DNA of 18,099 bases from Enterococcus phage vB_EfaP_2/Chl-5: sequence record PV455607.1; one strand, 5' to 3'. A model generated the notes under the pieces. It was not told the origin of the DNA, ran no database searches, and saw only the letters and a program-made list of their open reading frames with translations. Shown here in pieces: positions 1 through 18,099 of the stretch (its first letter is position 1; each line of letters opens with the position of its first letter). The translations under genes and the position numbers were made by a program.

Positions 1-43
1 AGAATATTGTTATAAAATACTTACATTTTTATCTATTATATCC

Positions 44-72
44 TTTACAAATATGTGATTATATGGTAAACT
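44..72 (+). promoter_or_regulatory. Candidate sigma-A early promoter: TTTACA (44-49), 17-bp spacer, extended -10 TGgTAAACT (64-72)
   Basis: Read directly. It has the same TTTACA-17-TGnTAxAxT architecture as the promoters at 956 and 4576. The -10 is only 4/6 but carries an extended TG. It lies about 30 bp upstream of the RBS of the first gene. Confidence 0.35.
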
Positions 73-4571: not shown

Positions 4572-4575
4572 ATTA

Positions 4576-4604
4576 TTTACATCCTTTGCAAAGTATGGTA
4601 AAAT
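4576..4604 (+). promoter_or_regulatory. Promoter TTTACA (4576-4581), 17-bp spacer, extended -10 TGgTAAAAT (4596-4604) driving a short non-coding transcript
   Basis: Read directly. No ORF follows. A strong terminator lies about 160 nt downstream. Confidence 0.55.
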
Positions 4605-4610
4605 ATTCTT

Positions 4611-4767
4611 GTGATAGTTGACAAGAGTCAAATTTGGCGAGATTGGGCGAATGTACACGTGAAATATCGTGCGCTCCCGTTAAGTTATGGACACATAAAC
4701 GTTTTGACCGTCAACCAATCGCAAAAACCTTTTAGGAGTAGCCCTTAAATGTGGCTACTCTTTTTTT
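4611..4767 (+). ncRNA. Candidate packaging RNA (pRNA-like), about 155 nt from predicted TSS to terminator
   Basis: It is a promoter-to-terminator unit without coding capacity at the position adjacent to gene 2 / p56 where phi29 encodes pRNA. Internal hairpins are TTGAC-AAGA-GTCAA (4618-4632), GTTTT...AAAAC (4701-4728) and the terminator stem. Its 5' GTTGAC/GATTGG segments are complementary to its 3' GTCAACCAATC. Confidence 0.45.
4736..4767 (+). terminator. Rho-independent terminator (stem GAGTAGCC 4736-4743 / GGCTACTC 4753-4760, 9-nt loop, T7 4761-4767)
   Basis: Read directly: perfect 8-bp GC-containing stem followed by seven T residues. Confidence 0.75.
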
Positions 4768-4783
4768 GTGTTTCACAGAATTA

Positions 4784-4799
4784 TGTTTCACGTGAAACA
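4784..4799. promoter_or_regulatory. parS: Perfect 16-bp palindrome TGTTTCACGTGAAACA matching the bacterial parS (ParB/Spo0J) consensus tGTTNCACGTGAAACa
   Basis: Read directly. A GTTTCAC half-site lies at 4770-4776. ACACGTGAAAT occurs at 4518-4528 and 4655-4665. The palindrome overlaps the -35 position of the late promoter. Confidence 0.6.
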
Positions 4800-4815
4800 G
4801 TTTTTATGGTATAAT
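4787..4815 (+). promoter_or_regulatory. Late promoter: extended -10 TGgTATAAT (4807-4815) with a poor -35 (TTCACG)
   Basis: Read directly. It lies 24 nt upstream of the scaffold-gene start and heads the whole late operon. Confidence 0.6.
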
Positions 4816-4838
4816 AGAATCAAAAGGAGGTGGAGATT

Positions 4839-5129
4839 ATGGAAATTAAAGAACATGAAGCAATTCTAAATGGTATTCTTGAAAGTGTCACAGACGGTGA
4901 AGCAAGATCAAAGATTGTAGAACATCTTGAAGCATTGCGAGAAGACTACGGAGCAACAACTGAAGCTTTGACATCAGCAAATAGCACACTTGAGAAGTTA
5001 AAGAAAGATAACGAAGCGTTGGTGATTTCAAACTCAAAATTGTTCCGAGAACGAGCGAGCGTAGAACAACCAGAAAATAACGAACCAGAAACAGACCAGA
5101 ATATTACACTAGATGATCTAGGAATTTAA
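4839..5129 (+). CDS. gp7: Head scaffolding protein (phi29 gp7-like); start ATG 4839 (track GTG 4830 lies inside the RBS)
   Basis: AGGAGG 4825-4830 then an 8-nt spacer to ATG. VISNSKLFRE matches phi29 gp7 IVSNSKLFRQ (recalled). It is about 96 aa, acidic and coiled-coil-like. Confidence 0.8.
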   Translation: MEIKEHEAILNGILESVTDGEARSKIVEHLEALREDYGATTEALTSANSTLEKLKKDNEALVISNSKLFRERASVEQPENNEPETDQNITLDDLGI

Positions 5130-5142
5130 GGAGGAAACAAAC

Positions 5143-6471
5143 ATGGCAGATAAAATCACAGAACAAGATGTTCTTAACGCCACAAATGTAGAAACACCAG
5201 TACAATTAATGACTGCTATTTATAATAGCTCATCATCTCTTTTTCAAGCGAACGTACCTATGCCAAATGCAGATAACATTCAAGCGGTTGGTGCTGGGAT
5301 CACACGTTTAGATGTAGTAAAAAATGAATTTATTTCAACTTTAGTTGATCGTATTGGTAAAGTAGTTATTCAATACAAATCATGGCGAAACCCTTTGAAA
5401 ATGTTTAAAAAAGGAAACATGCCTTTAGGTCGAACGATCGAAGAAATTTTTGTTGACATTGCACAGGAACATAAATTCAATCCTGAAGAATCTGTTACAG
5501 GTGTATTTAAACAGGAAGTTCCCGATGTAAAAACATTGTTTCACGAAATTAATCGTGAAGGTTACTACAAACAAACGATCCAAGAAGCATGGTTAGAAAA
5601 AGCATTTACTTCATGGGATAATTTCAATAGTTTCGTTGCTGGTGTAATGAATGCTTTATACACAGGCGATGAAGTAAGTGAATTTGAATACACGAAATTG
5701 TTAATAGCAAACTACCAAGAAAAAGAGTTATTCAAAGAGATCGAAATTGGCGAAATTAATGAATCAAATGCAAAAAATTTTATTCGTAAGATCAAAGCAA
5801 CATCAAACAAACTTGAATTTATGAACAATTCTTACAATGCACAAGGTGTAAGAACATCAACAGCTAAAGCCGACCAATACGTTATTATTGACGCTGACAC
5901 TGACGCTACAATTGACGTTGACGTTTTAGCAGCGGCATTCAATATGAGTAAAACTGACTTTGTAGGACACAAAATCGTTATTGATGAGTTTCCTAAAAAA
6001 GAAGGCGAAGATTCGTCAAATATTGTGGCAGTTATTGTAGATAGTGAGTGGTTTATGATCTATGACAAATTGTACAAAACAACAAGTCTATACAACCCTG
6101 AAGGCTTATATTGGAATTATTGGTTGCACCACCACCAACTATATTCTACTTCTCAATTCGGGAACGCCGTTGCTTTTGTTAAATCAGCAACAAAACCTGT
6201 CACAAAAGTTGCTTTTGCAAGTGCAACAGCTACTGTTGTTAAAGGTTCATCTAAAGATATCGCATTGACATTTACACCAGCAGAAGCAACAAACCAAGAA
6301 GGAGAAGTAGTTTCATCAGCACCAACATTGGTTAAGGCAACCGTAAAACAAACAGCAGGTAAAGCGACTGGCGTAACCGTAGAAGGCTTAGAAGTCGGTC
6401 AATCATTAGTAACATTCACAGCTATCGGAGGTCAACAAGCAACGGTTCTTGTTACGGTTACTTCTGACTAA
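5143..6471 (+). CDS. gp8: Major capsid protein (phi29 gp8-like) with C-terminal Ig-like Big_2 domain
   Basis: [15 protein letters not shown]...[21 protein letters not shown] parallels phi29 gp8 (FITSLVDRIGLVVIR...[21 protein letters not shown]). The C-terminal 80 aa are rich in T/V/A beta-strand residues, typical of Big_2. It is 442 aa, against 448 aa in phi29. Confidence 0.95.
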   Translation: [442 protein letters not shown]

Positions 6472-6482
6472 GGAGGACAATT

Positions 6483-8297
6483 ATGGCAAGACGGTATACA
6501 CATGTAAAATTGTTGACTAACGTGCCTTTTGATAACACTTATGCACACACAAGATGGTGTAAAACTCAACAGGAACAGGAATCGTACTTTAATTCGTTTC
6601 CTGTTCTAAACGAGAATACTGATTGTTCTTATCAAAGAGATACACAACTCGGTGGAGTTTTTAGAGTAGATAAACACAAAGACGCTTTATATGCTTGTAA
6701 CTATCTCATCTTTAAAAACGAAGAAACTTATCCTAGTAAATGGCAGTATGCCTTTGTTACAGATATTGAATATAAGAACGACAACACAAGTTTCGTTACT
6801 TTTGAAATTGATGTTTTACAAACTTATCGCTTTGATATTGGTATACGAGAAAGTTTCATTGCAAAAGAACATCCTCAACTTTATTATTCGAACGGAATAC
6901 CTTTCATTAATACAATTGAAGAGTCGCTTGATTACGGTAGAGAATACACAACAACAAATGTAACAACTTTTCATCCTAACGATGGAGTCAATTTTCTTGT
7001 TATTCTAACAAGTGAAGCAATGCCAGTGGGAGATAAGGAAGATAAATCAGGAGGATCAATTGTCGGAGGGCCATCACCTTATTCCTATTATTTACTTCCT
7101 CTCAATTCAAGTGGCGAGGTATACAAACCAAATGGTGCAGGTAATGCTAACTTTGGAGAGTACATGGCGTTTCTTACAACGAAAGAACCTTTTTTAAATA
7201 AGATAGTCGGGATGTATATAACGTCATATACAGGTATACCATTTATTGTGGATCATGCTAACAAAACAGTAAGGTATAATGCAGGAGGTTCGTATAAGAT
7301 TACACTCCCAACCTATGCCAGTGATCCAACAGGAACAATGAAAACATTCGCTTTCTTTTGTGTGAAAGAGGCAAGAACATTTGTACCTAAAAGAATTGAT
7401 CTTGTAGGAAATGTGTATAACTACTTTAGAGAAAGTTTTCCATTTAATGTTAAGGAATCTAAACTATTTATGTATCCTTATTGTTTACTAGAAATTACAG
7501 ATACTAAAGGACATGTTATGACTATCAGACCCGAATATCTTACAGGTGGTAAATTGAGTGTATACGTAAAAGGTTCGTTAGGCATTTCTAATAAAGTCAT
7601 GATTGAACCAATTGATTATGATGTAACTAACTCAAGCATTATTACTAATTTAAGTGACAAGATGTTAATCGATAATGACCCTAACGATGTAGGAGTTAAA
7701 TCTGACTACGCTGCTGCATTTATGCAAGGAAATAAAAACTCCTTGATTGCTCAAGAACAAAACATACGAAATACCTTTAGGCACGGTATGGGAAACAGTG
7801 CAATGAGTACAGGTGGAGCAATCTTTTCTGCATTGGCCAGTGTCAATCCATTTGTTGGTTTGACTAACATTATGGGAGCAGGACAACAAGTAAACAACTA
7901 TGTTGCAGAAAAAGAAAACGGATTGAATCTCTTAGCAGGCAAAGTGGCAGATATTGAAAATATCCCAGATAATGTCACACAGCTAGGATCAAACTTATCT
8001 TTCACAATGGGAAACTTTCAAAATTATTATCAATTGCGATTCAAACAAATTAAATATGAGTATGCTACAAGACTGAATCGTTACTTCTCAATGTATGGCA
8101 CAAAGAGCAATCGAGTAGCTACACCAAACTTACAAACAAGAAAATCATGGAATTTCATTAAATTAAAAGAGCCAAATATTGTAGGTACAATGAGTAACGA
8201 TGTGTTAACGCGAGTGAAACAAATTTTTAGTGCAGGAGTTACCCTTTGGCATACGAACGATATTTTAAATTATAACCAAGACAACGGAGATGTGTAG
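6483..8297 (+). CDS. gp9: Tail knob / distal tail protein (phi29 gp9-like)
   Basis: HVKLLTNVPFDNTYAHTRW parallels the recalled phi29 gp9 N-terminus (VRILADVPFSNDYKNTRWF). It is 604 aa, against 599 aa in phi29. RBS is AGGAGG. Confidence 0.85.
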   Translation: MARRYTHVKLLTNVPFDNTYAHTRWCKTQQEQESYFNSFPVLNENTDCSYQRDTQLGGVFRVDKHKDALYACNYLIFKNEETYPSKWQYAFVTDIEYKNDNTSFVTFEIDVLQTYRFDIGIRESFIAKEHPQLYYSNGIPFINTIEESLDYGREYTTTNVTTFHPNDGVNFLVILTSEAMPVGDKEDKSGGSIVGGPSPYSYYLLPLNSSGEVYKPNGAGNANFGEYMAFLTTKEPFLNKIVGMYITSYTGIPFIVDHANKTVRYNAGGSYKITLPTYASDPTGTMKTFAFFCVKEARTFVPKRIDLVGNVYNYFRESFPFNVKESKLFMYPYCLLEITDTKGHVMTIRPEYLTGGKLSVYVKGSLGISNKVMIEPIDYDVTNSSIITNLSDKMLIDNDPNDVGVKSDYAAAFMQGNKNSLIAQEQNIRNTFRHGMGNSAMSTGGAIFSALASVNPFVGLTNIMGAGQQVNNYVAEKENGLNLLAGKVADIENIPDNVTQLGSNLSFTMGNFQNYYQLRFKQIKYEYATRLNRYFSMYGTKSNRVATPNLQTRKSWNFIKLKEPNIVGTMSNDVLTRVKQIFSAGVTLWHTNDILNYNQDNGDV

Positions 8298-8311: not shown

Positions 8312-9292
8312 ATGAGTAGACGAAAAGGTGCAGGACTTGCTAGAAATAACCGTTATACAGCAAAAAGCAGACCTTATCCAAACGAACCCTATTCAAGTGA
8401 TGTAGAAGAAATCAGCTACTATGAACATTATCGTAGACAACTCACGCTCCTTACGTTTCAGTTGTTTGAATGGGAAAATTTACCGAAATCAATTGACCCT
8501 CGATATTTAGAAATTGCATTACACACAAATGGTTATCTCGGTTTCTTTAAAGATCCTACACTAGGGTTCATGGTTTGTGCAGGAGCAGAAGATGGCCAAA
8601 TCGATCATTATCACAATCCTATTTTCTTTACAGCAAATGAAGCAATGTATCACAAGAGATATCCTGTTTTAAGATATGATGATGATGATGACAAATCAAA
8701 ATGTATCATGTTGTATAACAATGATTTGAAAGTTCCTACACTACCGAGTCTTCATCGGTTTGCTTTGGATATGGCAGACATAAACCAGATATCACGAGTG
8801 AATCGAAGAGCGCAAAAAACACCTGTAATTATTCAAACTGATGAAAAGAAATACTTCTCATTGCTACAAGCTTATAACCAAATTGACGAAAATAATCAGG
8901 CTGTTTTTGTGGATAAAGATATGGAGTTTGACAAAGCTTTTAATGTGTGGCAAACAAATGCACCTTATGTAGTGGATAAACTAAGATCAGAATTGAACGA
9001 AGTATGGAATGAAGTCTTAACTTTTCTAGGTATCAACAATGCCAACGTAGATAAGACTGCACGTGTACAAACATCAGAAGTCTTATCTAACAACGAACAG
9101 ATTGAAAGCTCAGGAAACATCTTGTTAAAATCAAGAAAAGAGTTTTGTGATCGTGTAAATCGTGTCTTTGGCGATGAACTTGACGGAAAGATTGACGTGA
9201 AGTTTAGAACGGACGCGGTGCGACAATTACAACTAGCAGCAGGTCAATCAAAAAAAGACCAAATGAGTGGAGGGTTGCCAAGTGCTACTTAA
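8312..9292 (+). CDS. gp10: Head-tail connector / upper collar (portal, phi29 gp10-like)
   Basis: [21 protein letters not shown] parallels phi29 gp10 ([21 protein letters not shown]). Also [23 protein letters not shown] and FLGI.NAN match gp10. It is 326 aa. Confidence 0.92.
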   Translation: [326 protein letters not shown]

Positions 9293-10118
9293 ACGTTATA
9301 TTGAAAGTTTCACTTATTACCAACCTGAATTATCTCGAAAAGAACGTATTGAAGTTGGCAGAAAACAATTGTTTGATTTTGATTATCCATTTTATGACGA
9401 AACAAAACGAGCAGAATTTGAAACAAAATTTATCAATCACTTTTACTTGAGAGAGATAGGATCAGAAACGATGGGATCATTTAAGTTTAATCTTGACGAG
9501 TATTTAAATCTAAATATGCCCTATTGGAATAAGATGTTCCTATCAAATCTTGAAGAGTTTCCGATTTTTGATGATATGGACTATACCATTGATGAGAAAC
9601 AGAAATTGTTAAATGAGATTGATACAAACATCAAAGCGAATCGGGATGAGTCAAAAAATCAAACGAAACAAGTAGATCAAACAGACAACAGAAACAAAAA
9701 TACCCGTGACACAGGAACAACCGATTCTTTCTCAAGAAACACGTATACAGACACTCCTCAAAAAGATTTGAGAATTGCTAGTAATGGCGACGGAACAGGT
9801 GTCATCAATTATGCAACAAATATCACAGAAGATTTGAGTAAAGAAACAACAAGTTCTACAGGCGTTGAAACAAACAACGACAAAACAAATCAAAACACAC
9901 GAAGCAATGCTTCTGAAAAAGAAACAAAGAACACAGACATTAATAAAGATCAAAATCAAACCAAAGATACGATTACACGATATAAAGGTAAAAAGGGAAA
10001 CACTGATTATGCTGACTTACTCGAAAAATATCGCAAAAGTGTTTTGAGAATTGAGAAAATGATCTTTAGAGAAATGAACAAGGAAGGCTTATTTCTCCTT
10101 GTTTATGGAGGGAGGTAA
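9282..10118 (+). CDS. gp11: Lower collar protein (phi29 gp11-like) with a long polar low-complexity insertion; start probably GTG 9282 after GGAGGG (track GTG 9267)
   Basis: The position after the connector and the 279-aa size (293 aa in phi29) fit gp11. It overlaps the gp10 3' end. Residues about 125-245 are a T/N/K/D/Q-rich, apparently disordered segment. Confidence 0.7.
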   Translation: MLLKRYIESFTYYQPELSRKERIEVGRKQLFDFDYPFYDETKRAEFETKFINHFYLREIGSETMGSFKFNLDEYLNLNMPYWNKMFLSNLEEFPIFDDMDYTIDEKQKLLNEIDTNIKANRDESKNQTKQVDQTDNRNKNTRDTGTTDSFSRNTYTDTPQKDLRIASNGDGTGVINYATNITEDLSKETTSSTGVETNNDKTNQNTRSNASEKETKNTDINKDQNQTKDTITRYKGKKGNTDYADLLEKYRKSVLRIEKMIFREMNKEGLFLLVYGGR

Positions 10119-10123
10119 CAGCA

Positions 10124-10675
10124 ATGGTAGATTTTAACCCCGACAAGCGGTTTGACGGTTTACCCTCAGTATTCAAAGAACGTTTTAGTAAATATCCTCA
10201 TACGGAGTACAGATACGAATTACTATTAGATGAAGAAGTATCGGCTTTAATTGCCTATCTGAATGAGATTGGCGCTTTAGTTAATGATATGAGTGGTTAT
10301 TTAAATTACTTTATCGAACATTTTGTAGAGAAGTTAGAAGAGATCACAACTGACACACTCAAAAAATGGTTATCTGACGGTACACTAGAAAGTTTAATCA
10401 ACGATACTGTGTTTGCTAATTATATCAAAGAAATCAAAAGACTACAAATCTTGGTTGCTGAAACACGTGCTAACAGTGTGAATATTCTTTTGACAAAAAA
10501 TAAACCCGATGTTGCTGATGATCGAACATTTTGGTTTAAAATACAACGTGATAATACCGATTATGGGAATGATCCTATTGATACGTTACGTATTGTTGCA
10601 ATCAATAAAGTTAGTGGCTGGAATACCGCTACAGGAGATATTTATCTTAACATTAAAGGAACGGAGGGTGTATAA
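10124..10675 (+). CDS. Hypothetical structural protein (183 aa), no phi29 counterpart recognised
   Basis: RBS GGAGGGAGG and tight packing in the late operon; TAATG coupling to the next gene. Confidence 0.6.
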   Translation: MVDFNPDKRFDGLPSVFKERFSKYPHTEYRYELLLDEEVSALIAYLNEIGALVNDMSGYLNYFIEHFVEKLEEITTDTLKKWLSDGTLESLINDTVFANYIKEIKRLQILVAETRANSVNILLTKNKPDVADDRTFWFKIQRDNTDYGNDPIDTLRIVAINKVSGWNTATGDIYLNIKGTEGV

Positions 10676-10971
10676 TGGCAGACATTAGAACACAACTAAC
10701 AAGCGAAGATGGATCAGACAATTTATTTCCAATTTCAAAAGCCGTTAATATTATGACTAATAGCGGCAAGAATGTAGAAGGAGAATTGGGTACACTCAAA
10801 CAAAATAACGAAACAATGAATACGTCAGTTCAAAATGCGGTAGTTAATGCCAATCAAGCAAAAGATTCTGTAGCTGAATTAAATGTGAATGTTGGTAAAC
10901 TAACCAATCGAATAACAACATTAGAGAGTACAGTCGATAGTATTGACGGTATTCGTTATGTAGAGGTGTAA
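10675..10971 (+). CDS. Fibre-like protein 1 (98 aa) with conserved N-terminal module and coiled-coil tail
   Basis: N-terminus MADIRTQLTSEDGSDNLFPISKAVNIM is shared with the next two genes. C-terminal heptad-like NAVVNANQAKDSVAELNVNVGKLTNRITTLE. Confidence 0.65.
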   Translation: MADIRTQLTSEDGSDNLFPISKAVNIMTNSGKNVEGELGTLKQNNETMNTSVQNAVVNANQAKDSVAELNVNVGKLTNRITTLESTVDSIDGIRYVEV

Positions 10972-10972
10972 T

Positions 10973-11377
10973 ATGGCAGATAAAAATATTCAACTGAAGG
11001 ATAAAGATCAAAATCGTTTAATGCCTGTAACCATTGCTAAAAATGTTCTAACAGGCGACTCTAATCTTGAATTAGTTAATGCTGAAATAAGAGGTAACGC
11101 TAGTGAAGCTAAAACCCTTGCACAACAAGCTAAAGAAACTGCTGATGGATTGTCAACAGAAATTGAAACAGCAACTTCAACCGCAAATCAAGCGTTGACG
11201 AAAGCTGGTACAGCACAACAAACCGCAGAACAAGCGAAAACAGCAGCGAACAGTGTCAGTTCAGTTGCAACGACAGCTAAAAACACAGCTGATTCAGCAA
11301 AACAAACTGCAACTGATCTTGCTGTTCGAGTAAGCAGTTTAGAGAACACAGCAATACAATATACTGTATTACCGTAG
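10973..11377 (+). CDS. Fibre-like protein 2 (134 aa), A/T/Q-rich fibrous segment
   Basis: N-terminus MADKNIQLKDKDQNRLMPVTIAKNVL. Low-complexity AKTLAQQAKETADGLSTEIETATSTANQALTKAGTAQQTAEQAKTAANS repeat-like shaft. Confidence 0.65.
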   Translation: MADKNIQLKDKDQNRLMPVTIAKNVLTGDSNLELVNAEIRGNASEAKTLAQQAKETADGLSTEIETATSTANQALTKAGTAQQTAEQAKTAANSVSSVATTAKNTADSAKQTATDLAVRVSSLENTAIQYTVLP

Positions 11378-11388
11378 GAGGAAAAATA

Positions 11389-11811
11389 ATGGCAAATAAA
11401 AATATTCAAATGAAGGATAGCAATGACAATAATTTATATCCAATTGTTCGAGCAGAAAACTTGTTAGATTTAACTAGTCGTGCTGAATTGACAATGACAA
11501 ATTGTCAATTATATAACGCTAGTGATAAAACAAATGCAATCTCTTATCTCGGCGCAGTAGGTATGATCGAAGGTATGGTAAAGTTTACTGAAAGTTTAAC
11601 AAATCCAGTGATTACAACATTACCAGAAGGTTTTAGACCGATAAGAACAAAGCGTATTGGTTGTTTCGCAAAATACTACACACCAAATCCAGCAAATACA
11701 AAAGAAATGATTTATGTATCAATCACACCTGATGGTAGAGTAACCGTAAATGACAATGTAGGTAAAATCGAATATCTATCATTAGATAATTGTGTTTTCC
11801 CTCTAAAATAA
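11389..11811 (+). CDS. Fibre-like protein 3 (140 aa), globular C-terminal domain
   Basis: N-terminus MANKNIQMKDSNDNNLYPIVRAENLL. Its first 30 nt are nearly identical to the first 30 nt of the gene at 10973. Confidence 0.65.
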   Translation: MANKNIQMKDSNDNNLYPIVRAENLLDLTSRAELTMTNCQLYNASDKTNAISYLGAVGMIEGMVKFTESLTNPVITTLPEGFRPIRTKRIGCFAKYYTPNPANTKEMIYVSITPDGRVTVNDNVGKIEYLSLDNCVFPLK

Positions 11812-11821
11812 GGAGGTTCCT

Positions 11822-13156
11822 ATGGAAGAACGAATTGATATTCAAATGAACAAAATGAAAGAAGAAAATCAAAAGAATTACCTATTGCACCCTGAAACGA
11901 ACCCGACACAGGTTGTTTTTGATGAAACATTACATGGAAATAAAAATCAAGAGAGTTTCAACGAATTTGTTGACAAAAGAAAAATGACAACTACAATCGA
12001 TGTAAGTGCTTATGGCGTTATTGCAGATGGTGTAACAGATTGTACACCAATCTTAAATAAACTACTCGAAGAAAAAAGCGAAATGGGTATCACTTTTTAT
12101 TTTCCTCCTTGTGAACGTGATTCATATTATCGCTTTGCTAACACAATTGAATTAAAGCGTGATGTTCCAGTAGTGACTTTCTTAGGATCAGGAGAAACAA
12201 CATTAAAGTTTGAAACAATGACGGCATTTAATGTAAACATTGAAAGCTTCAATATTGATGGGTTTGCATTATGGTTGCCACAAGGCGCTCAAAGCGGTAA
12301 AGGAATTTTCTTTAATGATACTCGAAATTACAACCGTTTTGACTTTGATTTGTTTGTTCGCAACTGTACTTTAAATGAAGGAACATATGTTGTTGTTGCT
12401 AGAGGTAGAGGGGTTACCTTTAAAAATTGTCTATTCTCTAATATCTCTCAAGCAATCATCAAAACAGCTTTTCCAGATGTAAACAGTATGTGGCAAGGGA
12501 ACGATATTAATACTAGGGGTACAGGTTTTAGAGGTTTCTTTGTGAAAAACAACCGTATTCACTTTTGTACAGCGATCATTATCGACAATGAGGATGATTA
12601 TCAGAATGTCATTAATTTCTGTGAAATTTCTGGTAACACAATCGAAGGTGGCGTAAGTTATTATCGAGGATATGCACATAACTTGCATGTCCAAAACAAC
12701 AACCATTTTCTAGCATACGGAAATAGAAACGCTTTGTTTGAGTTTCAAGATGTGGATCAAGCTTATATTGATGTAGATGTTTATTCTCGTAACTCGAAAG
12801 TAGAGGGAATGAATAGTACAGCTATTTCACGTTTAGTTGTTGTTTACGGACATTACCGAAACTTAAGGATTACAGGAAAGTTATATCGTTGTCAAGGAAA
12901 TGTTATCACTTTATATGGTGGTGGCGTTAATTTCTATTGTGATCTAATGGCACAAGAAGCGCCTTTGACAGACGGATATCGGTTTATTCAAACAGCGGAC
13001 AAACGAGTCAACTATGACGGTTTTGTTGTTCGTGGACTGTCTAATTCAACAAAAGTAAATACACCAATGATCTATAAAGCACCTCAGACTGTTTTCTATA
13101 ATCGTAAAATCGATCATGTGCTAACAGGTCCAAATGCAAGTAATGTATATAACTAG
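11822..13156 (+). CDS. gp12: Pre-neck appendage / tailspike with pectate-lyase-type right-handed beta-helix (phi29 gp12 position, half its size)
   Basis: VSAYGVIADGVTDCTPILNKLL matches the YGAKGDGVTDDT signature of Pectate_lyase_3-type tailspikes. Repetitive N/G/V beta-helix-like composition. The position before the gp13-like gene fits. Confidence 0.7.
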   Translation: MEERIDIQMNKMKEENQKNYLLHPETNPTQVVFDETLHGNKNQESFNEFVDKRKMTTTIDVSAYGVIADGVTDCTPILNKLLEEKSEMGITFYFPPCERDSYYRFANTIELKRDVPVVTFLGSGETTLKFETMTAFNVNIESFNIDGFALWLPQGAQSGKGIFFNDTRNYNRFDFDLFVRNCTLNEGTYVVVARGRGVTFKNCLFSNISQAIIKTAFPDVNSMWQGNDINTRGTGFRGFFVKNNRIHFCTAIIIDNEDDYQNVINFCEISGNTIEGGVSYYRGYAHNLHVQNNNHFLAYGNRNALFEFQDVDQAYIDVDVYSRNSKVEGMNSTAISRLVVVYGHYRNLRITGKLYRCQGNVITLYGGGVNFYCDLMAQEAPLTDGYRFIQTADKRVNYDGFVVRGLSNSTKVNTPMIYKAPQTVFYNRKIDHVLTGPNASNVYN

Positions 13157-13167
13157 GAGGATATGAG

Positions 13168-14205
13168 ATGGCAACTCTTACAAATGAACAAATAGCTAGA
13201 GGACAAACAATCGCTAAAATACTTTCAAAATATGGCTATAATAAAAATTCACAAGTAGGAGTTGTCGCCAATCTCCATTGGGAATCGGCTGGTTTGAACC
13301 CGAACATCAATGAACATGGTGGGGGCGGATATGGGTTAGGTCAATGGACACCTAAAAGCAATCTTTATCGCCAGGCTCAAATTTGTGGGTTGTCTAATGC
13401 TAAAGCTGAAACGTTGGAAGGTCAAGCAGAGATTATCGCTCAAGGAGATAAAACAGGTCAATGGATGGATAATACGACTGTTTCTTCTGCAGGTTATACT
13501 AACCCGCAGACACTTTCAGCATTTAAACAATCTGCAAATATTGATGTTGCTACAATTAATTTTATGTGTCACTGGGAACGTCCTGGTATACTTCATATCG
13601 AAGAAAGACTTGATCTTGCACAAGCTTATAGTAAGCATATTGATGGTAGCGGTGGCGGTGGCGTAAAACGTTGCTATGGAACACCAATTAAGAATACAAA
13701 TCTTGATCCTAAAAGTTTCATGAGTGGACAACTTTTTGGCACGCATGCAGGAAATGGCAGACCAAATAATTTCCATGATGGACTGGACTTTGGGTCGATT
13801 GATCATCCAGGCAATGAAATGATCGCTTGTTGCGATGGTACAGTAACACACGTTGGAACAATGGGTGCATTAAGAGCATATTTTGTGATAAACGACGGCG
13901 CTTACAATATCGTTTATCAAGAATTTAGTTATAACCAGTCAAATATAAAGGTAAAAGTTGGCGACAAAGTTAAGAACGGACAAGTTTGCGCAATACGTGA
14001 CGCTGATCATTTACATTTAGGTTTTACTAAAAAAGATTTTATGACTGCGTTAGGATCTTCTTTCATAGACGATGGAACATGGGAAGACCCTTTGAAGTTT
14101 TTAGGACAATGTTTTGGAGATGGAGATAATGACGATAACAATAAGGATAAAAATGATCTTATTTATCTATTGCTATCCGATGCCTTGAATGGTTGGAAAT
14201 TTTAA
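13168..14205 (+). CDS. gp13: Tail-associated peptidoglycan hydrolase (phi29 gp13-like): N-terminal lysozyme-like domain plus C-terminal M23 peptidase
   Basis: HDGLDF (HxxxD) and HLHLG (HxH) zinc-ligand motifs of M23/LytM are present. N-terminal WESAGLNPN...GLGQWTP is lysozyme-like. Glycine linkers GGGGYG and GSGGGGV separate the domains. Confidence 0.8.
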   Translation: MATLTNEQIARGQTIAKILSKYGYNKNSQVGVVANLHWESAGLNPNINEHGGGGYGLGQWTPKSNLYRQAQICGLSNAKAETLEGQAEIIAQGDKTGQWMDNTTVSSAGYTNPQTLSAFKQSANIDVATINFMCHWERPGILHIEERLDLAQAYSKHIDGSGGGGVKRCYGTPIKNTNLDPKSFMSGQLFGTHAGNGRPNNFHDGLDFGSIDHPGNEMIACCDGTVTHVGTMGALRAYFVINDGAYNIVYQEFSYNQSNIKVKVGDKVKNGQVCAIRDADHLHLGFTKKDFMTALGSSFIDDGTWEDPLKFLGQCFGDGDNDDNNKDKNDLIYLLLSDALNGWKF

Positions 14206-17909: not shown

Positions 17910-17938
17910 AGTATATCATGTATTTACATATATGTCAA
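17910..17938 (-). promoter_or_regulatory. Right-end early promoter, proximal copy: -35 TTGACA (rc of 17933-17938), 17-bp spacer, extended -10 TGaTATACT (rc of 17910-17918)
   Basis: Read directly on the minus strand. It is a near-consensus sigma-A promoter pointing leftward into the right-early operon. Confidence 0.65.
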
Positions 17939-18004
17939 TCATTTAATTCATTTATTTAATGATTTATTTGATTGTTTTTATGATCCTTTCTTTATTACAT
18001 CTAT

Positions 18005-18033
18005 AGTATATCATGTATGTTTGTATTTGTCAA
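18005..18033 (-). promoter_or_regulatory. Right-end early promoter, distal copy: -35 TTGACA (rc of 18028-18033), 17-bp spacer, extended -10 TGaTATACT (rc of 18005-18013)
   Basis: It has the same architecture as the proximal copy, 95 bp further upstream (minus-strand sense). Both lie inside about 50-bp direct repeats at 17888-17940 and 17983-18035. Confidence 0.6.
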
Positions 18034-18099
18034 CAATTAAAATCATATAAATGTAGGTTGGGGTCATTTACAAATGTGTTATCAAAAAAAGATAATATT

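What the first reader, a model, noticed from the sequence alone, without database searches (positions are those of the whole stretch)
10675..11811. Three consecutive fibre-like genes sharing a conserved about 27-aa N-terminal module (and near-identical first 30 nt) but different C-terminal domains
MADIRTQLTSEDGSDNLFPISKAVNIM, MADKNIQLKDKDQNRLMPVTIAKNVL and MANKNIQMKDSNDNNLYPIVRAENLL head proteins of 98, 134 and 140 aa. Their tails are a short coiled coil, an A/T/Q-rich fibrous shaft and a globular domain. A shared anchor module with swapped distal domains is the hallmark of head fibres or collar appendages attaching to a common site. The nucleotide identity at the 5' ends (10973-11003 vs 11389-11419) would allow recombinational module shuffling. 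No separate gp8.5 head-fibre gene follows the capsid gene, so these may replace it.
Basis: seen in the sequence. Interest (0 to 1): 0.6.

Follow-up and report, generated by a model that had tools for sequence, protein, structure and literature searches.

The report
Split collar fibre with plug-and-socket joints
Three small neighbouring genes of a tiny phi29-like Enterococcus faecium phage share a docking peptide at their start, and are most likely separately encoded segments of the phage's collar appendage rather than head fibres; the same joint recurs in many phages of Gram-positive bacteria and has not been described.

Summary
ORFs 10675-10971 (98 aa), 10973-11377 (134 aa) and 11389-11811 (140 aa) share a roughly 27-aa N-terminal module. 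The 134- and 140-aa genes match at 28 of their first 30 nt. All three are under purifying selection.

The window is an Athos/CUB-FM-like Salasmaviridae phage. The three genes lie inside a split gp12 (pre-neck appendage) locus:
- Upstream, a 183-aa protein matches only the collar-binding N-terminus of phi29 gp12.
- Downstream, a 444-aa protein is the beta-helix-like part.

A profile built only from unrelated phages finds exactly these three ORFs in the window. In those phages the module heads distal fibre proteins that directly follow a protein ending ...GDFWYKEV. In two proteins, one of them a phi29-like gp12, both halves are fused in one chain. Among 38 phi29-like loci, all 4 with a short stand-alone anchor have module-headed genes downstream; none of 30 with long, module-free gp12 does.

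Best reading: a multi-protein collar appendage joined by plug-and-socket junctions, probably in series (183, 98, 134, then 140). The 98- and 134-aa proteins are coiled-coil extenders and the 140-aa protein carries a tail-fibre tip domain. The head-fibre idea is not supported. Both AlphaFold runs failed, so the assembly order is inferred.

The parts
10124..10675 (+). o183: stand-alone collar anchor. It is a homologue of the N-terminal collar-binding domain of phi29 gp12, followed by two FW-type 'socket' motifs (TFWFKI and, at the C-terminus, GDIYLNIKGTEGV).
   Evidence: Residues 8-94 match residues 8-95 of phi29 gp12 in the virion structure 6qz9 (E 3.6e-6). It matches PHROG 17212, pre-neck appendage. 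By tblastn it matches the first ~110 aa of gp12 in 40+ Bacillus phages. Residues 13-139 align to residues 13-121 of the unsplit gp12-like protein of L024 and the alignment ends exactly at TFWFK/TFWLK (E 4e-8). Its C-terminus ranks first of 27 window genes against a matrix of outside socket ends. A socket HMM alone is not significant (E 0.41).
10675..10971 (+). o98: N-terminal plug module, ~60-residue coiled coil and conserved C-terminal end (DGIRYVEV). Proposed extender segment 1.
   Evidence: Module HMM E 6.7e-6. Unbroken heptad register. Invariant positions across six relatives: N-terminal 27 aa 78%, middle 40%, last 20 aa 55%. Start codon overlaps the o183 stop.
10675..10755 (+). Plug module of o98 (MADIRTQLTSEDGSDNLFPISKAVNIM).
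10973..11377 (+). o134: N-terminal plug module, ~95-residue alanine-zipper coiled coil and conserved C-terminal end (LAVRVSSLENTAIQYTVLP). Proposed extender segment 2.
   Evidence: Module HMM E 3.3e-7. Pfam Alanine_zipper E 1.2e-8, above the curated threshold. Heptads 0.96 vs 0.13. C-terminus ranks 2nd of 27 against the socket matrix. A natural 71-aa variant (P0091) lacks the middle but keeps both ends.
10973..11053 (+). Plug module of o134 (MADKNIQLKDKDQNRLMPVTIAKNVLT). Its first 30 nt match the first 30 nt of o140 at 28 positions.
11389..11811 (+). o140: N-terminal plug module, short linker and C-terminal ~85-aa fibre-tip domain. Proposed distal, receptor-contacting end.
   Evidence: Module HMM E 6.5e-9. 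PHROG 3639, minor tail protein, profile positions 353-454 of 474 (E 2.3e-7). An exhaustive profile search finds the same domain at the C-terminal end of P0077, P0078 and P0080. P0077 also starts with the module.
11389..11469 (+). Plug module of o140 (MANKNIQMKDSNDNNLYPIVRAENLLD).
   Evidence: Residues 1-10 and 14-18 are invariant in 21 variants.
11554..11808 (+). Tip domain of o140 (residues about 56-140).
   Evidence: No solved structure found by sequence.
11822..13156 (+). o444: probable tailspike, the part equivalent to the beta-helix of gp12, with a 54-aa N-terminal extension of unknown attachment mode.
   Evidence: Pfam pectate-lyase-like family at E 7.8e-6, just below the curated threshold. 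The Athos record annotates remote gp12 homology. 'IDVSAYGVIADGVTD' resembles phi29 gp12 'VSVKTYGAKGDGVTDD' at the start of its helix (comparison by eye). Its N-terminus looks module-like by eye, but profile tests are negative (HMM E 6.9; hhalign E 0.22).

Best explanation
The three genes encode separately translated segments of the phage's collar (pre-neck) appendage. In phi29 that appendage is the single protein gp12.

In this Enterococcus faecium phage the gp12 gene is split:
- o183 keeps only the collar-binding N-terminal domain and ends in FW-type 'socket' strands.
- o98, o134 and o140 each begin with a ~27-residue 'plug' module, with consensus MADKNIQ-x(5-12)-NL[YFM]P[IV]TKAxN[VIL].
- In other phages this plug always follows such a socket, either in the next gene or in the same chain.

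Inferred mechanism: the C-terminal strand of the proximal protein and the first strand of the plug form one small beta unit across two polypeptides. This joins trimers non-covalently.

Most likely order is the gene order. o183 (anchor) is followed by o98 (about 9 nm of coiled coil), then o134 (about 14 nm of coiled coil), then o140 (tip domain). The result would be a thin segmented fibre that reaches from the collar to the cell-wall polysaccharide. o444 would supply the enzymatic tailspike part.

Shown: the module family, the split of gp12, the strict link between a stand-alone anchor and module-headed genes, and the coiled coils.

Inferred: physical contact between plug and socket, trimeric state, serial order, presence in the virion, and a role in adsorption.
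For: 1. Split gp12. o183 matches gp12 residues 8-95 and the gp12 N-terminus of 40+ phages, where that domain always heads a 500-870-aa protein. o444 is the beta-helix-like remainder.

2. The module is a family with an attachment context.
- HMMs built without any Athos-clade sequence pick out exactly the three ORFs.
- Outside, the module heads proteins with unrelated distal parts: a GDSL esterase, a beta-propeller, small tips, and a NAGPA-like glycosidase tail.
- In L015, L016, L019, L023, L025, L028, L031, L033, L034, L035 (twice) and L037 the gene just upstream ends with an FW-type socket 3-25 nt before the module gene's ATG. Most read ...GD[FY]WY[KQ][EV][VL]; others read ADFWYKIL, ATIWLDEE and ADFWYEELA.

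3. Fusion ('Rosetta stone') evidence.
- In the phi29-like contig L024 one 588-aa protein is gp12 anchor (2-100, E 9e-23 to 6qz9), then TFWLKDDGE, then the module (124-157), then a NAGPA glycosidase.
- Bacillus phage Shbh1 YomR-like protein also has socket and module fused.
- Concatenated split pairs align collinearly with the fused proteins.

4. Association. Of 38 phi29-like loci, all 4 with a short stand-alone anchor (127-195 aa) have module-headed ORFs directly downstream. None of 30 with a long gp12 lacking the module does. My Fisher estimate is about 2e-5.

5. Serial precedent.
- L042: anchor, then a 160-aa protein (module ... TTLWFQEV*), then a 466-aa protein (module plus a tail resembling the NAGPA protein of L024 by eye).
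- L044: anchor, then a 197-aa protein (module ... NTVWFETL*), then a 70-aa module protein.
- L035: 83 aa, then 140 aa (module ... ADFWYEELA*), then 81 aa.

6. In the window, the C-termini of o183, o134 and o98 rank 1, 2 and 6 of 27 genes against a matrix of 14 outside sockets. The rank sum is 9, reached by 7 of 2925 triples.

7. Both ends of o98 and o134 are more conserved than the middle. A natural o134 variant has lost the middle only.

8. Start and stop codons of o183, o98 and o134 overlap or are 1 nt apart. No terminator-like site lies on the coding strand between the genes, and promoter-like sites are no more frequent than in shuffled sequence.

9. The three genes change amino acids faster than o183 and o444, as expected for exposed, host-facing parts. 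Athos adsorption depends on the epa cell-wall polysaccharide locus (PMC11210271).
Against: - No structural or proteomic evidence. Both AlphaFold2 runs gave unusable models (pLDDT 44 and 37). No solved structure contains the module, the junction or the tip domain.
- The socket motif is weak in this phage. The socket HMM gives E 0.41 for o183.
- o98 and o134 end in IRYVEV and IQYTVLP without the tryptophan. Taken one by one they are not significant (background fractions 0.13 and 0.05). The matrix test was designed after seeing the data.
- The plugs of o134 and o140 are nearly identical over the first 10 residues. Strict pairwise specificity, which an ordered chain needs, is therefore not obvious.
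- The attachment of o444 is unexplained, because its N-terminus fails every profile test.
- Tandem module-headed tip genes without FW-type socket ends exist elsewhere (L009, L010). Parallel use of one site therefore also occurs in nature.
Confidence: 0.6

Rival explanations
1. Parallel (branched) attachment. o98, o134, o140 and perhaps o444 each dock independently, through the same plug, onto the socket(s) of the o183 anchor. Each virion would carry a mixture or a bouquet of different distal proteins on its twelve collar positions.
For: - The plugs are alike, especially those of o134 and o140.
- o183 has the only socket-like C-terminus that stands out on its own (rank 1 of 27), and it has two FW-type motifs.
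- Tandem module-headed tip genes without FW-type socket ends occur in L009 and L010.
- Branched receptor-binding systems with a conserved docking peptide are established in Klebsiella podophages (PMC6872550, PMC13352976).
Against: - Coiled coils with no distal domain (o98, o134) make little sense as independent receptor binders.
- Their C-terminal ends are conserved and are retained when the middle is deleted.
- The closest architectural relatives (L042, L044, L035) have extender proteins with a plug at one end and a clear socket at the other.
Confidence: 0.28
2. Head fibres. The three proteins decorate the capsid through the shared module and replace the missing gp8.5.
For: - No gene lies between the capsid and tail-knob genes.
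- Trimeric coiled-coil fibres are a common capsid decoration (general knowledge).
Against: - No similarity to gp8.5.
- The genes lie between the two halves of a split gp12.
- All outside occurrences of the module are in tail-fibre, baseplate or gp12 contexts, and are tied to stand-alone gp12 anchors.
- The o140 domain is a minor-tail-protein end domain.
Confidence: 0.04
3. Non-structural helpers. The small proteins are assembly chaperones for the o444 tailspike and are absent from the finished virion.
For: Small ORFs next to fibre genes are often chaperones (general knowledge). The three have no annotated function.
Against: - Chaperone genes usually follow, not precede, their client.
- Long continuous coiled coils and a fibre-tip domain are structural features.
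- Homologous modules head large enzymatic fibre proteins elsewhere.
Confidence: 0.05

Closest known systems
Phi29 gp12 pre-neck appendage (tailspike); PDB 6qz9 virion. The separate crystal structure of residues 89-691 is cited from my own knowledge.
   Same: - Same genome position, after the lower-collar gene.
- The o183 N-terminus is homologous to the collar-binding N-terminus of gp12.
- o444 resembles the beta-helix part.
- Presumably twelve trimeric appendages that bind a cell-wall glycopolymer.
   Different: - Phi29 gp12 is one 854-aa chain in which the helix follows the anchor directly.
- Here the gene is cut into an anchor and a helix protein, with three extra genes and a plug module in between.
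- The module is absent from phi29-type gp12.
Branched receptor-binding proteins of Klebsiella podophages KP32, KP34 and K11: anchor domain, branching domain and a conserved docking peptide on the second protein (PMC6872550, PMC13352976).
   Same: A short conserved N-terminal peptide on otherwise unrelated distal proteins docks them onto a virion-bound anchor protein. This makes the distal parts exchangeable.
   Different: - No sequence relationship.
- Different virus family (T7-like, Gram-negative host).
- There the acceptor is a T4 gp10-like branching domain. Here it appears to be a short C-terminal FW strand, and the units can be strung in series.
T4 long tail fibre (gp34, gp35, gp36, gp37) and T4 fibritin.
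   Same: - A fibre built end to end from several gene products encoded in order of assembly.
- Fibritin is a trimeric coiled coil with a small N-terminal attachment element at the neck (general knowledge).
   Different: No homology. The T4 junctions are each different, whereas here one and the same joint is reused.
Lactococcal phage TP901-1 BppU/BppL baseplate tripod.
   Same: The N-terminal segment of a small trimeric receptor-binding protein (N-terminal strand, coiled-coil stem, head) is held by the C-terminal part of a carrier protein (general knowledge).
   Different: No detectable sequence similarity. It is a siphophage baseplate, not a podophage collar. This comparison was not tested here beyond the negative PDB sequence searches.
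Phi29 gp8.5 head fibre.
   Same: A small trimeric fibre of a phi29-like virion.
   Different: No sequence similarity, a different gene position, and a different context for all homologues.

Membership tests
Phi29 gp12-type pre-neck appendage | N-terminal collar-binding domain homologous to gp12 residues 1-100 | tested here: met
   Met by the neighbouring o183 (E 3.6e-6 to 6qz9). Not present in o98, o134 or o140 themselves.
Phi29 gp12-type pre-neck appendage | Anchor and right-handed beta-helix in one polypeptide | tested here: not met
   The anchor (o183) and the helix-like protein (o444) are separate genes, with three genes between them.
Phi29 gp12-type pre-neck appendage | Pectate-lyase-like beta-helix | tested here: inconclusive
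   o444 scores 26.3 bits against a curated cut-off of 27 for PF12708. No PDB sequence match. No structure model was made for it.
Phi29 gp8.5 head fibre | Sequence similarity to gp8.5, in particular to its N-terminal capsid-binding base | tested here: not met
   BLASTP best E 0.25, to the C-terminal part only. The module HMM scores 1.6 bits on gp8.5. No head-fibre family appeared in the Pfam or PHROG scans.
Phi29 gp8.5 head fibre | Gene between the capsid and tail-knob genes | tested here: not met
   The genes lie after the lower-collar gene. Nothing lies between 6471 and 6483.
Plug module family (defined here; not in Pfam, PHROGs or PDB) | N-terminal ~27-35 residues matching MADKNIQ...NL[YF]P[IV]TKAxNV | tested here: met
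   Independent HMMs: E 6.5e-9, 3.3e-7 and 6.7e-6.
Plug module family (defined here; not in Pfam, PHROGs or PDB) | Directly preceded by a gene, or chain segment, that ends in an FW-type socket | tested here: inconclusive
   The C-termini of o183, o134 and o98 rank 1, 2 and 6 of 27, but none has the canonical GDFWYKEV. The socket HMM is not significant.
Plug module family (defined here; not in Pfam, PHROGs or PDB) | Physical docking of plug to socket | not testable with these tools
   No multimer prediction was available. Monomer models failed.
Phage fibre tip domain (PHROG 3639, 3285, 1798 C-terminal region) | Profile match of the last ~85 residues at the C-terminal end of the protein | tested here: met
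   o140: PHROG 3639 at E 2.3e-7. Remote homologues P0077, P0078 and P0080 align end to end.
Trimeric alanine-zipper coiled coil (Pfam PF11839) | Score above the Pfam curated threshold, with a continuous heptad register | tested here: met
   o134: 35.6 bits against a cut-off of 23.1. Heptads 0.96 vs 0.13. The oligomeric state itself was not tested.

The most novel reading that the evidence does not exclude
A single reusable plug-and-socket joint (...GDFWYKEV* onto MADKNIQ...NLYPITKAxNV) lets phages of Gram-positive bacteria build fibres from separately encoded, freely exchangeable segments. It occurs in all three tail types: podo-, sipho- and myophages. In Athos-like phages it strings four, possibly five, gene products into one collar appendage. 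That would make this 18-kb virus the smallest known phage with a multi-segment fibre, and the joint a ready-made handle for re-targeting phages against vancomycin-resistant E. faecium.
Probability: 0.4. Interest if true: 0.75.

Novelty: new variant of a known kind. Interest (0 to 1): 0.6.

Why it matters
- Modular attachment of receptor-binding proteins is the main lever for changing phage host range. It is well worked out for T7-like Klebsiella and E. coli phages but hardly at all for phages of Gram-positive pathogens.
- The data define three things in sequence terms. First, a previously unannotated docking module with no Pfam, PHROG or PDB entry. Second, its partner motif. Third, a split form of the phi29 appendage that occurs in at least five independent lineages of phi29-like phages.
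- This gives a direct, testable design rule: swap whatever follows the plug. It applies to Athos/CUB-FM-type phages, which are being developed against vancomycin-resistant E. faecium.
- It also gives four 'hypothetical proteins' in those genomes (o183, o98, o134, o140) a proposed role.

Tried and rejected
- AlphaFold2 of o140 with 21 close homologues gave pLDDT 44. AlphaFold2 of o183 with 4 sequences gave pLDDT 37. Both models are unusable, so no fold search was run.
- PDB sequence searches were all negative: o140, o444, the module profile, the tip-domain profile and the fused junction profile. The only 'hits' to the module were antibody light chains starting DIQMTQS, which is chance.
- The module alone has no match in Pfam or PHROGs.
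- tblastn of the three proteins and of the module against 50,697 phage genomes finds only Athos and CUB-FM, plus a weak hit in Bacillus phage Shbh1.
- The word-indexed protein search with o140 gave only relatives at 78% identity or more (85% or more among full-length ones). With o183 it gave three clusters. With the module alignment it gave only short fragments.
- I looked for a fourth member, the N-terminus of o444 (IDIQMNKMKEENQKNYLLHPETNPTQVVF). It looks alike by eye, especially next to ...NLFPYTVTENVFD of L044, but failed the pairwise shuffle test, three HMMs and hhalign (E 0.22). It is left open.
- I considered that the last 30 residues of o183 are a degenerate module in cis. The HMM does not support this. 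They read better as a second socket, as in L035, L042 and L044.
- The socket HMM against the window is not significant.
- A literature text search for the motif strings found nothing.
- Rfam found no pRNA or other RNA.
Full report
**What the window is**

The 18,099-nt window is a complete or nearly complete phi29-like podophage genome. It is 95.7% identical to Enterococcus phage CUB-FM and 91% identical to Enterococcus phage Athos (Salasmaviridae; host E. faecium).

The late genes run in phi29 order:

| Gene | Coordinates |
|---|---|
| scaffold | 4830-5129 |
| capsid with Ig-like end | 5143-6471 |
| tail knob gp9 | 6483-8297 |
| connector gp10 | 8312-9292 |
| lower collar gp11 | 9267-10118 |
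| o183 | 10124-10675 |
| o98 | 10675-10971 |
| o134 | 10973-11377 |
| o140 | 11389-11811 |
| o444 | 11822-13156 |
| gp13-like lysozyme/M23 | 13168-14205 |

Holin, endolysin and the packaging ATPase follow. In both deposited genomes o183, o98, o134 and o140 are 'hypothetical'. The paper describing Athos says nothing about them. It shows only that Athos adsorption depends on the epa cell-wall polysaccharide locus (PMC11210271).

**Check of the observation**

- ORF coordinates and lengths are as stated.
- The N-terminal similarity is far beyond chance. For o134 vs o140 the local score is 82, reached by 0 of 2000 shuffles. For o98 against either, 1-2 of 2000 shuffles reach the score.
- The first 30 nt of o134 and o140 are identical at 28 positions.
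- The genes are real. The five-gene layout recurs in Athos, CUB-FM, two IMG/VR contigs and a 77%-identical relative, L013.
- dN/dS is 0.13-0.48. That is purifying selection, but several-fold more relaxed than in o183, o444 and the collar genes, which lie at 0.01-0.10.
- Translation looks coupled. The o183 stop overlaps the o98 start, and one base separates o98 from o134. No terminator-like site lies on the coding strand between the genes, and promoter-like sites are no more frequent than in shuffled sequence.
- One correction. o98 and o134 are both continuous coiled coils with a single heptad register. o134 passes the Pfam alanine-zipper threshold.

**What flanks them**

- o183 is the key. Its residues 8-94 match residues 8-95 of phi29 gp12 in the virion structure 6qz9 (E 3.6e-6).
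- By tblastn it matches the first ~110 residues of gp12 in more than 40 Bacillus, Cytobacillus and Clostridium phages. In the three of those I opened, the domain is the start of a 528-770-aa protein.
- In phi29 itself the beta-helix begins right after the anchor (...QFG VSVKTYGAKGDGVTDD...).
- Here the helix-like part is a separate protein, o444. It is pectate-lyase-like at E 7.8e-6, just under the Pfam cut-off. It reads ...IDVSAYGVIADGVTD... from residue ~58.
- So the appendage gene is split, and the three genes of the finding sit in the split.

**The module is a family**

The exhaustive profile search with o140 found only a few remote relatives. All matched through the C-terminal ~85 residues, which lie at the very end of those proteins. 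The same region hits PHROG 'minor tail protein' families.

One relative, P0077, also begins with the module (...NIIYPITKTENILDL). On its contig it is followed by a paralogue with the same start.

Degenerate DNA patterns for NL[FY]P[IV]TKxxN[IV] and for MADKNIQM then recovered module-headed genes in IMG/VR contigs and in Fredinandcohnia, Paenibacillus and Clostridium genomes. They start MADKNIQMTQRNxxNTxWDNLYPITKAxNV.

Their distal parts are unrelated to one another: a GDSL esterase, a beta-propeller, and small domains.

An HMM made only from these outside sequences finds exactly o140, o134 and o98 in the window (E 6.5e-9, 3.3e-7, 6.7e-6; next best 0.16). Neither Pfam, PHROGs nor the PDB has anything for it.

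**The partner motif**

In L015, L016, L019, L023, L025, L028, L031, L033, L034, L035 and L037 the gene immediately upstream of a module-headed gene ends in an FW-type strand. Most read ...P..P..GD[FY]WY[KQ][EV][VL]*; L031 reads ADFWYKIL* and L035 reads ATIWLDEE* and ADFWYEELA*. The end lies 3-25 nt before the ATG.

In two proteins the two halves are one chain:
- The Herelleviridae phage Shbh1 YomR-like protein reads ...PSAGLFWYQVDPQGNFYIKRRNNDNTDWDDLFTVTMASNVL....
- The gp12-like protein of the phi29-like contig L024 is more telling. It is gp12 anchor (residues 2-100, E 9e-23 to 6qz9), then ...TNTFWLKDDGE, then the module (124-157), then a NAGPA phosphodiester glycosidase.

o183 aligns to this protein from residue 13 to 139, and the alignment stops exactly at TFWFK/TFWLK (E 4e-8). 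Concatenated split pairs align collinearly with the fused proteins, with no gap at the break.

The simplest reading is that socket strand and plug form one small folded unit, and that this unit can be divided between two polypeptides. This is inference; there is no structure.

**Association test**

A scan of IMG/VR with a gp12-anchor alignment returned 38 phi29-like loci. The result:
- All four with a short stand-alone anchor ORF (127, 143, 159 and 195 aa) have one or two module-headed ORFs directly downstream.
- None of the 30 with a long gp12 lacking the module has a module-headed gene nearby.
- The one remaining long gp12 is L024, with the module fused inside.
- Three loci were cut by contig ends or too short to judge.
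- By my calculation this split has a Fisher probability of about 2e-5.

The split appendage with plug-headed partners is therefore a recurrent architecture among phi29-like phages, not a quirk of this genome.

**Serial or parallel**

Three outside loci show proteins that have the plug at one end and a clear socket at the other, followed by another plug-headed gene:
- L042: anchor, then 160 aa (... TTLWFQEV*), then 466 aa.
- L044: anchor, then 197 aa (... NTVWFETL*), then 70 aa.
- L035 (Paenibacillus): 83 aa, then 140 aa (... ADFWYEELA*), then 81 aa.

These are extender segments. o98 and o134 have the same build: plug, spacer (here a coiled coil), and a conserved C-terminal end.
- Across six relatives the ends are more conserved than the middle.
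- A natural 71-aa variant of o134 has lost only the middle.

Their last residues (DGIRYVEV, AIQYTVLP) are degenerate compared with the outside sockets. I scored the C-termini of all 27 window genes with a matrix from 14 outside sockets. This gives o183 rank 1, o134 rank 2 and o98 rank 6. The rank sum of 9 is reached by 7 of 2925 possible triples. Individually only o183 stands out, and the test was devised after the fact.

I therefore favour a chain in gene order: anchor, about 9 nm of coiled coil, about 14 nm of coiled coil, then tip. A branched arrangement on o183 stays as a serious rival.

How o444 attaches is open. Its N-terminus resembles the plug by eye but fails every statistical test.

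**The head-fibre idea**

- There is no similarity to gp8.5.
- The gene position is wrong.
- All homologues of the module and of the o140 end domain are tail-fibre or appendage parts.
- It is true that no gp8.5 gene follows the capsid gene. However, the capsid protein keeps its C-terminal Ig-like domain, and nothing links the three genes to the head.

**Recombination**

CUB-FM has, between o98 and o134, a 29-codon leftover. It consists of ATGGCAG joined to the last ~100 nt of an o134-like gene, followed by the spacer that normally separates o134 from o140.

That is the product expected from two events:
- unequal crossing-over between the near-identical 5' ends of o134 and o140, which duplicates o134;
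- then an internal deletion between ATGGCAG and ACGACAG.

It rests on one genome.

**Limits**

- Everything about physical contact, oligomeric state, order of assembly and virion presence is inferred.
- Both structure predictions failed because the families are shallow.
- No multimer prediction was available.

**Verdict**

- The feature is a new variant of a known principle, modular receptor-binding proteins joined by a conserved docking peptide. It sits in a virus family where it has not been described, and it uses a joint with no entry in Pfam, PHROGs or the PDB and no mention in the papers I searched.

Noticed in passing
L002 (CUB-FM) 10941-11038, corresponding to the o98/o134 junction at window ~10972: A 29-codon remnant ORF. 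It is ATGGCAG fused to the 3' ~100 nt of a second o134 copy, followed by the o134/o140-type spacer. It looks like the scar of a tandem duplication by crossover at the repeated 5' module, followed by an internal deletion.
   Followed up: yes
P0091 (71 aa, on a 5.6-kb ENA contig); homologue of window 10973-11377: A natural o134 variant that lacks about 63 central coiled-coil residues but keeps the plug and the last ~22 residues.
   Followed up: partly
window 11822-11980 (o444 residues 1-54): The N-terminal extension IDIQMNKMKEENQKNYLLHPETNPTQVVFDE resembles the plug by eye, especially ...NLFPYTVTENVFD of L044 and ...LLFPKTQAAVVF of P0093. No profile test supports it. How the tailspike-like protein is attached is unknown.
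   Followed up: yes
L015, L016 and L031 (siphophage tail regions): FW-type C-terminal ends also precede genes with other conserved starts. ...GDIWLKTV* is followed by MTDMQPIRILTP..., and ...DFWFRET* is followed by MAQTIQVKRGL...GFCTDTKEIFIGDG. The socket may therefore accept several plug types.
   Followed up: no
L009 871-2535 and L010 10851-13365: Tandem genes of the form plug, middle domain, tip domain, where the tip ends ...SWVSFDNITYSLD* or ...KWISLDGVSFSIKE* and is followed directly by another plug-headed gene. Either they are parallel paralogues, or the tip domain itself can carry a further segment.
   Followed up: no
window 5143-6471 vs Athos L001 5146-5346 and 5421-6473: The capsid gene is one 442-aa ORF here and in CUB-FM, but is annotated as two genes in Athos ('head morphogenesis protein' and 'major capsid protein'). 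This is probably a frameshift in the Ion Torrent assembly.
   Followed up: no
whole window; protein clusters P0001-P0075 and P0082: Dozens of 16-18-kb contigs carrying this phage come from E. faecium isolate assemblies, including one cluster with 168 members. This fits the carrier-state idea raised in the Athos paper. One o183 fragment is labelled Acinetobacter baumannii in NCBI, which is probably contamination.
   Followed up: no
window 1-62, 943-1063, 4572-4829 and 17920-18099: Rfam gives no pRNA or any other RNA family match, even at E up to 1, although phi29 relatives use a packaging RNA. The two ends of the window show no obvious inverted terminal repeat, so the contig may lack the true ends.
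   Followed up: partly
window 13168-14205: The gp13-like protein (tail lysozyme plus M23 peptidase) ends in a Gly/Asp/Asn-rich stretch whose length varies between relatives (345-349 aa).
   Followed up: no
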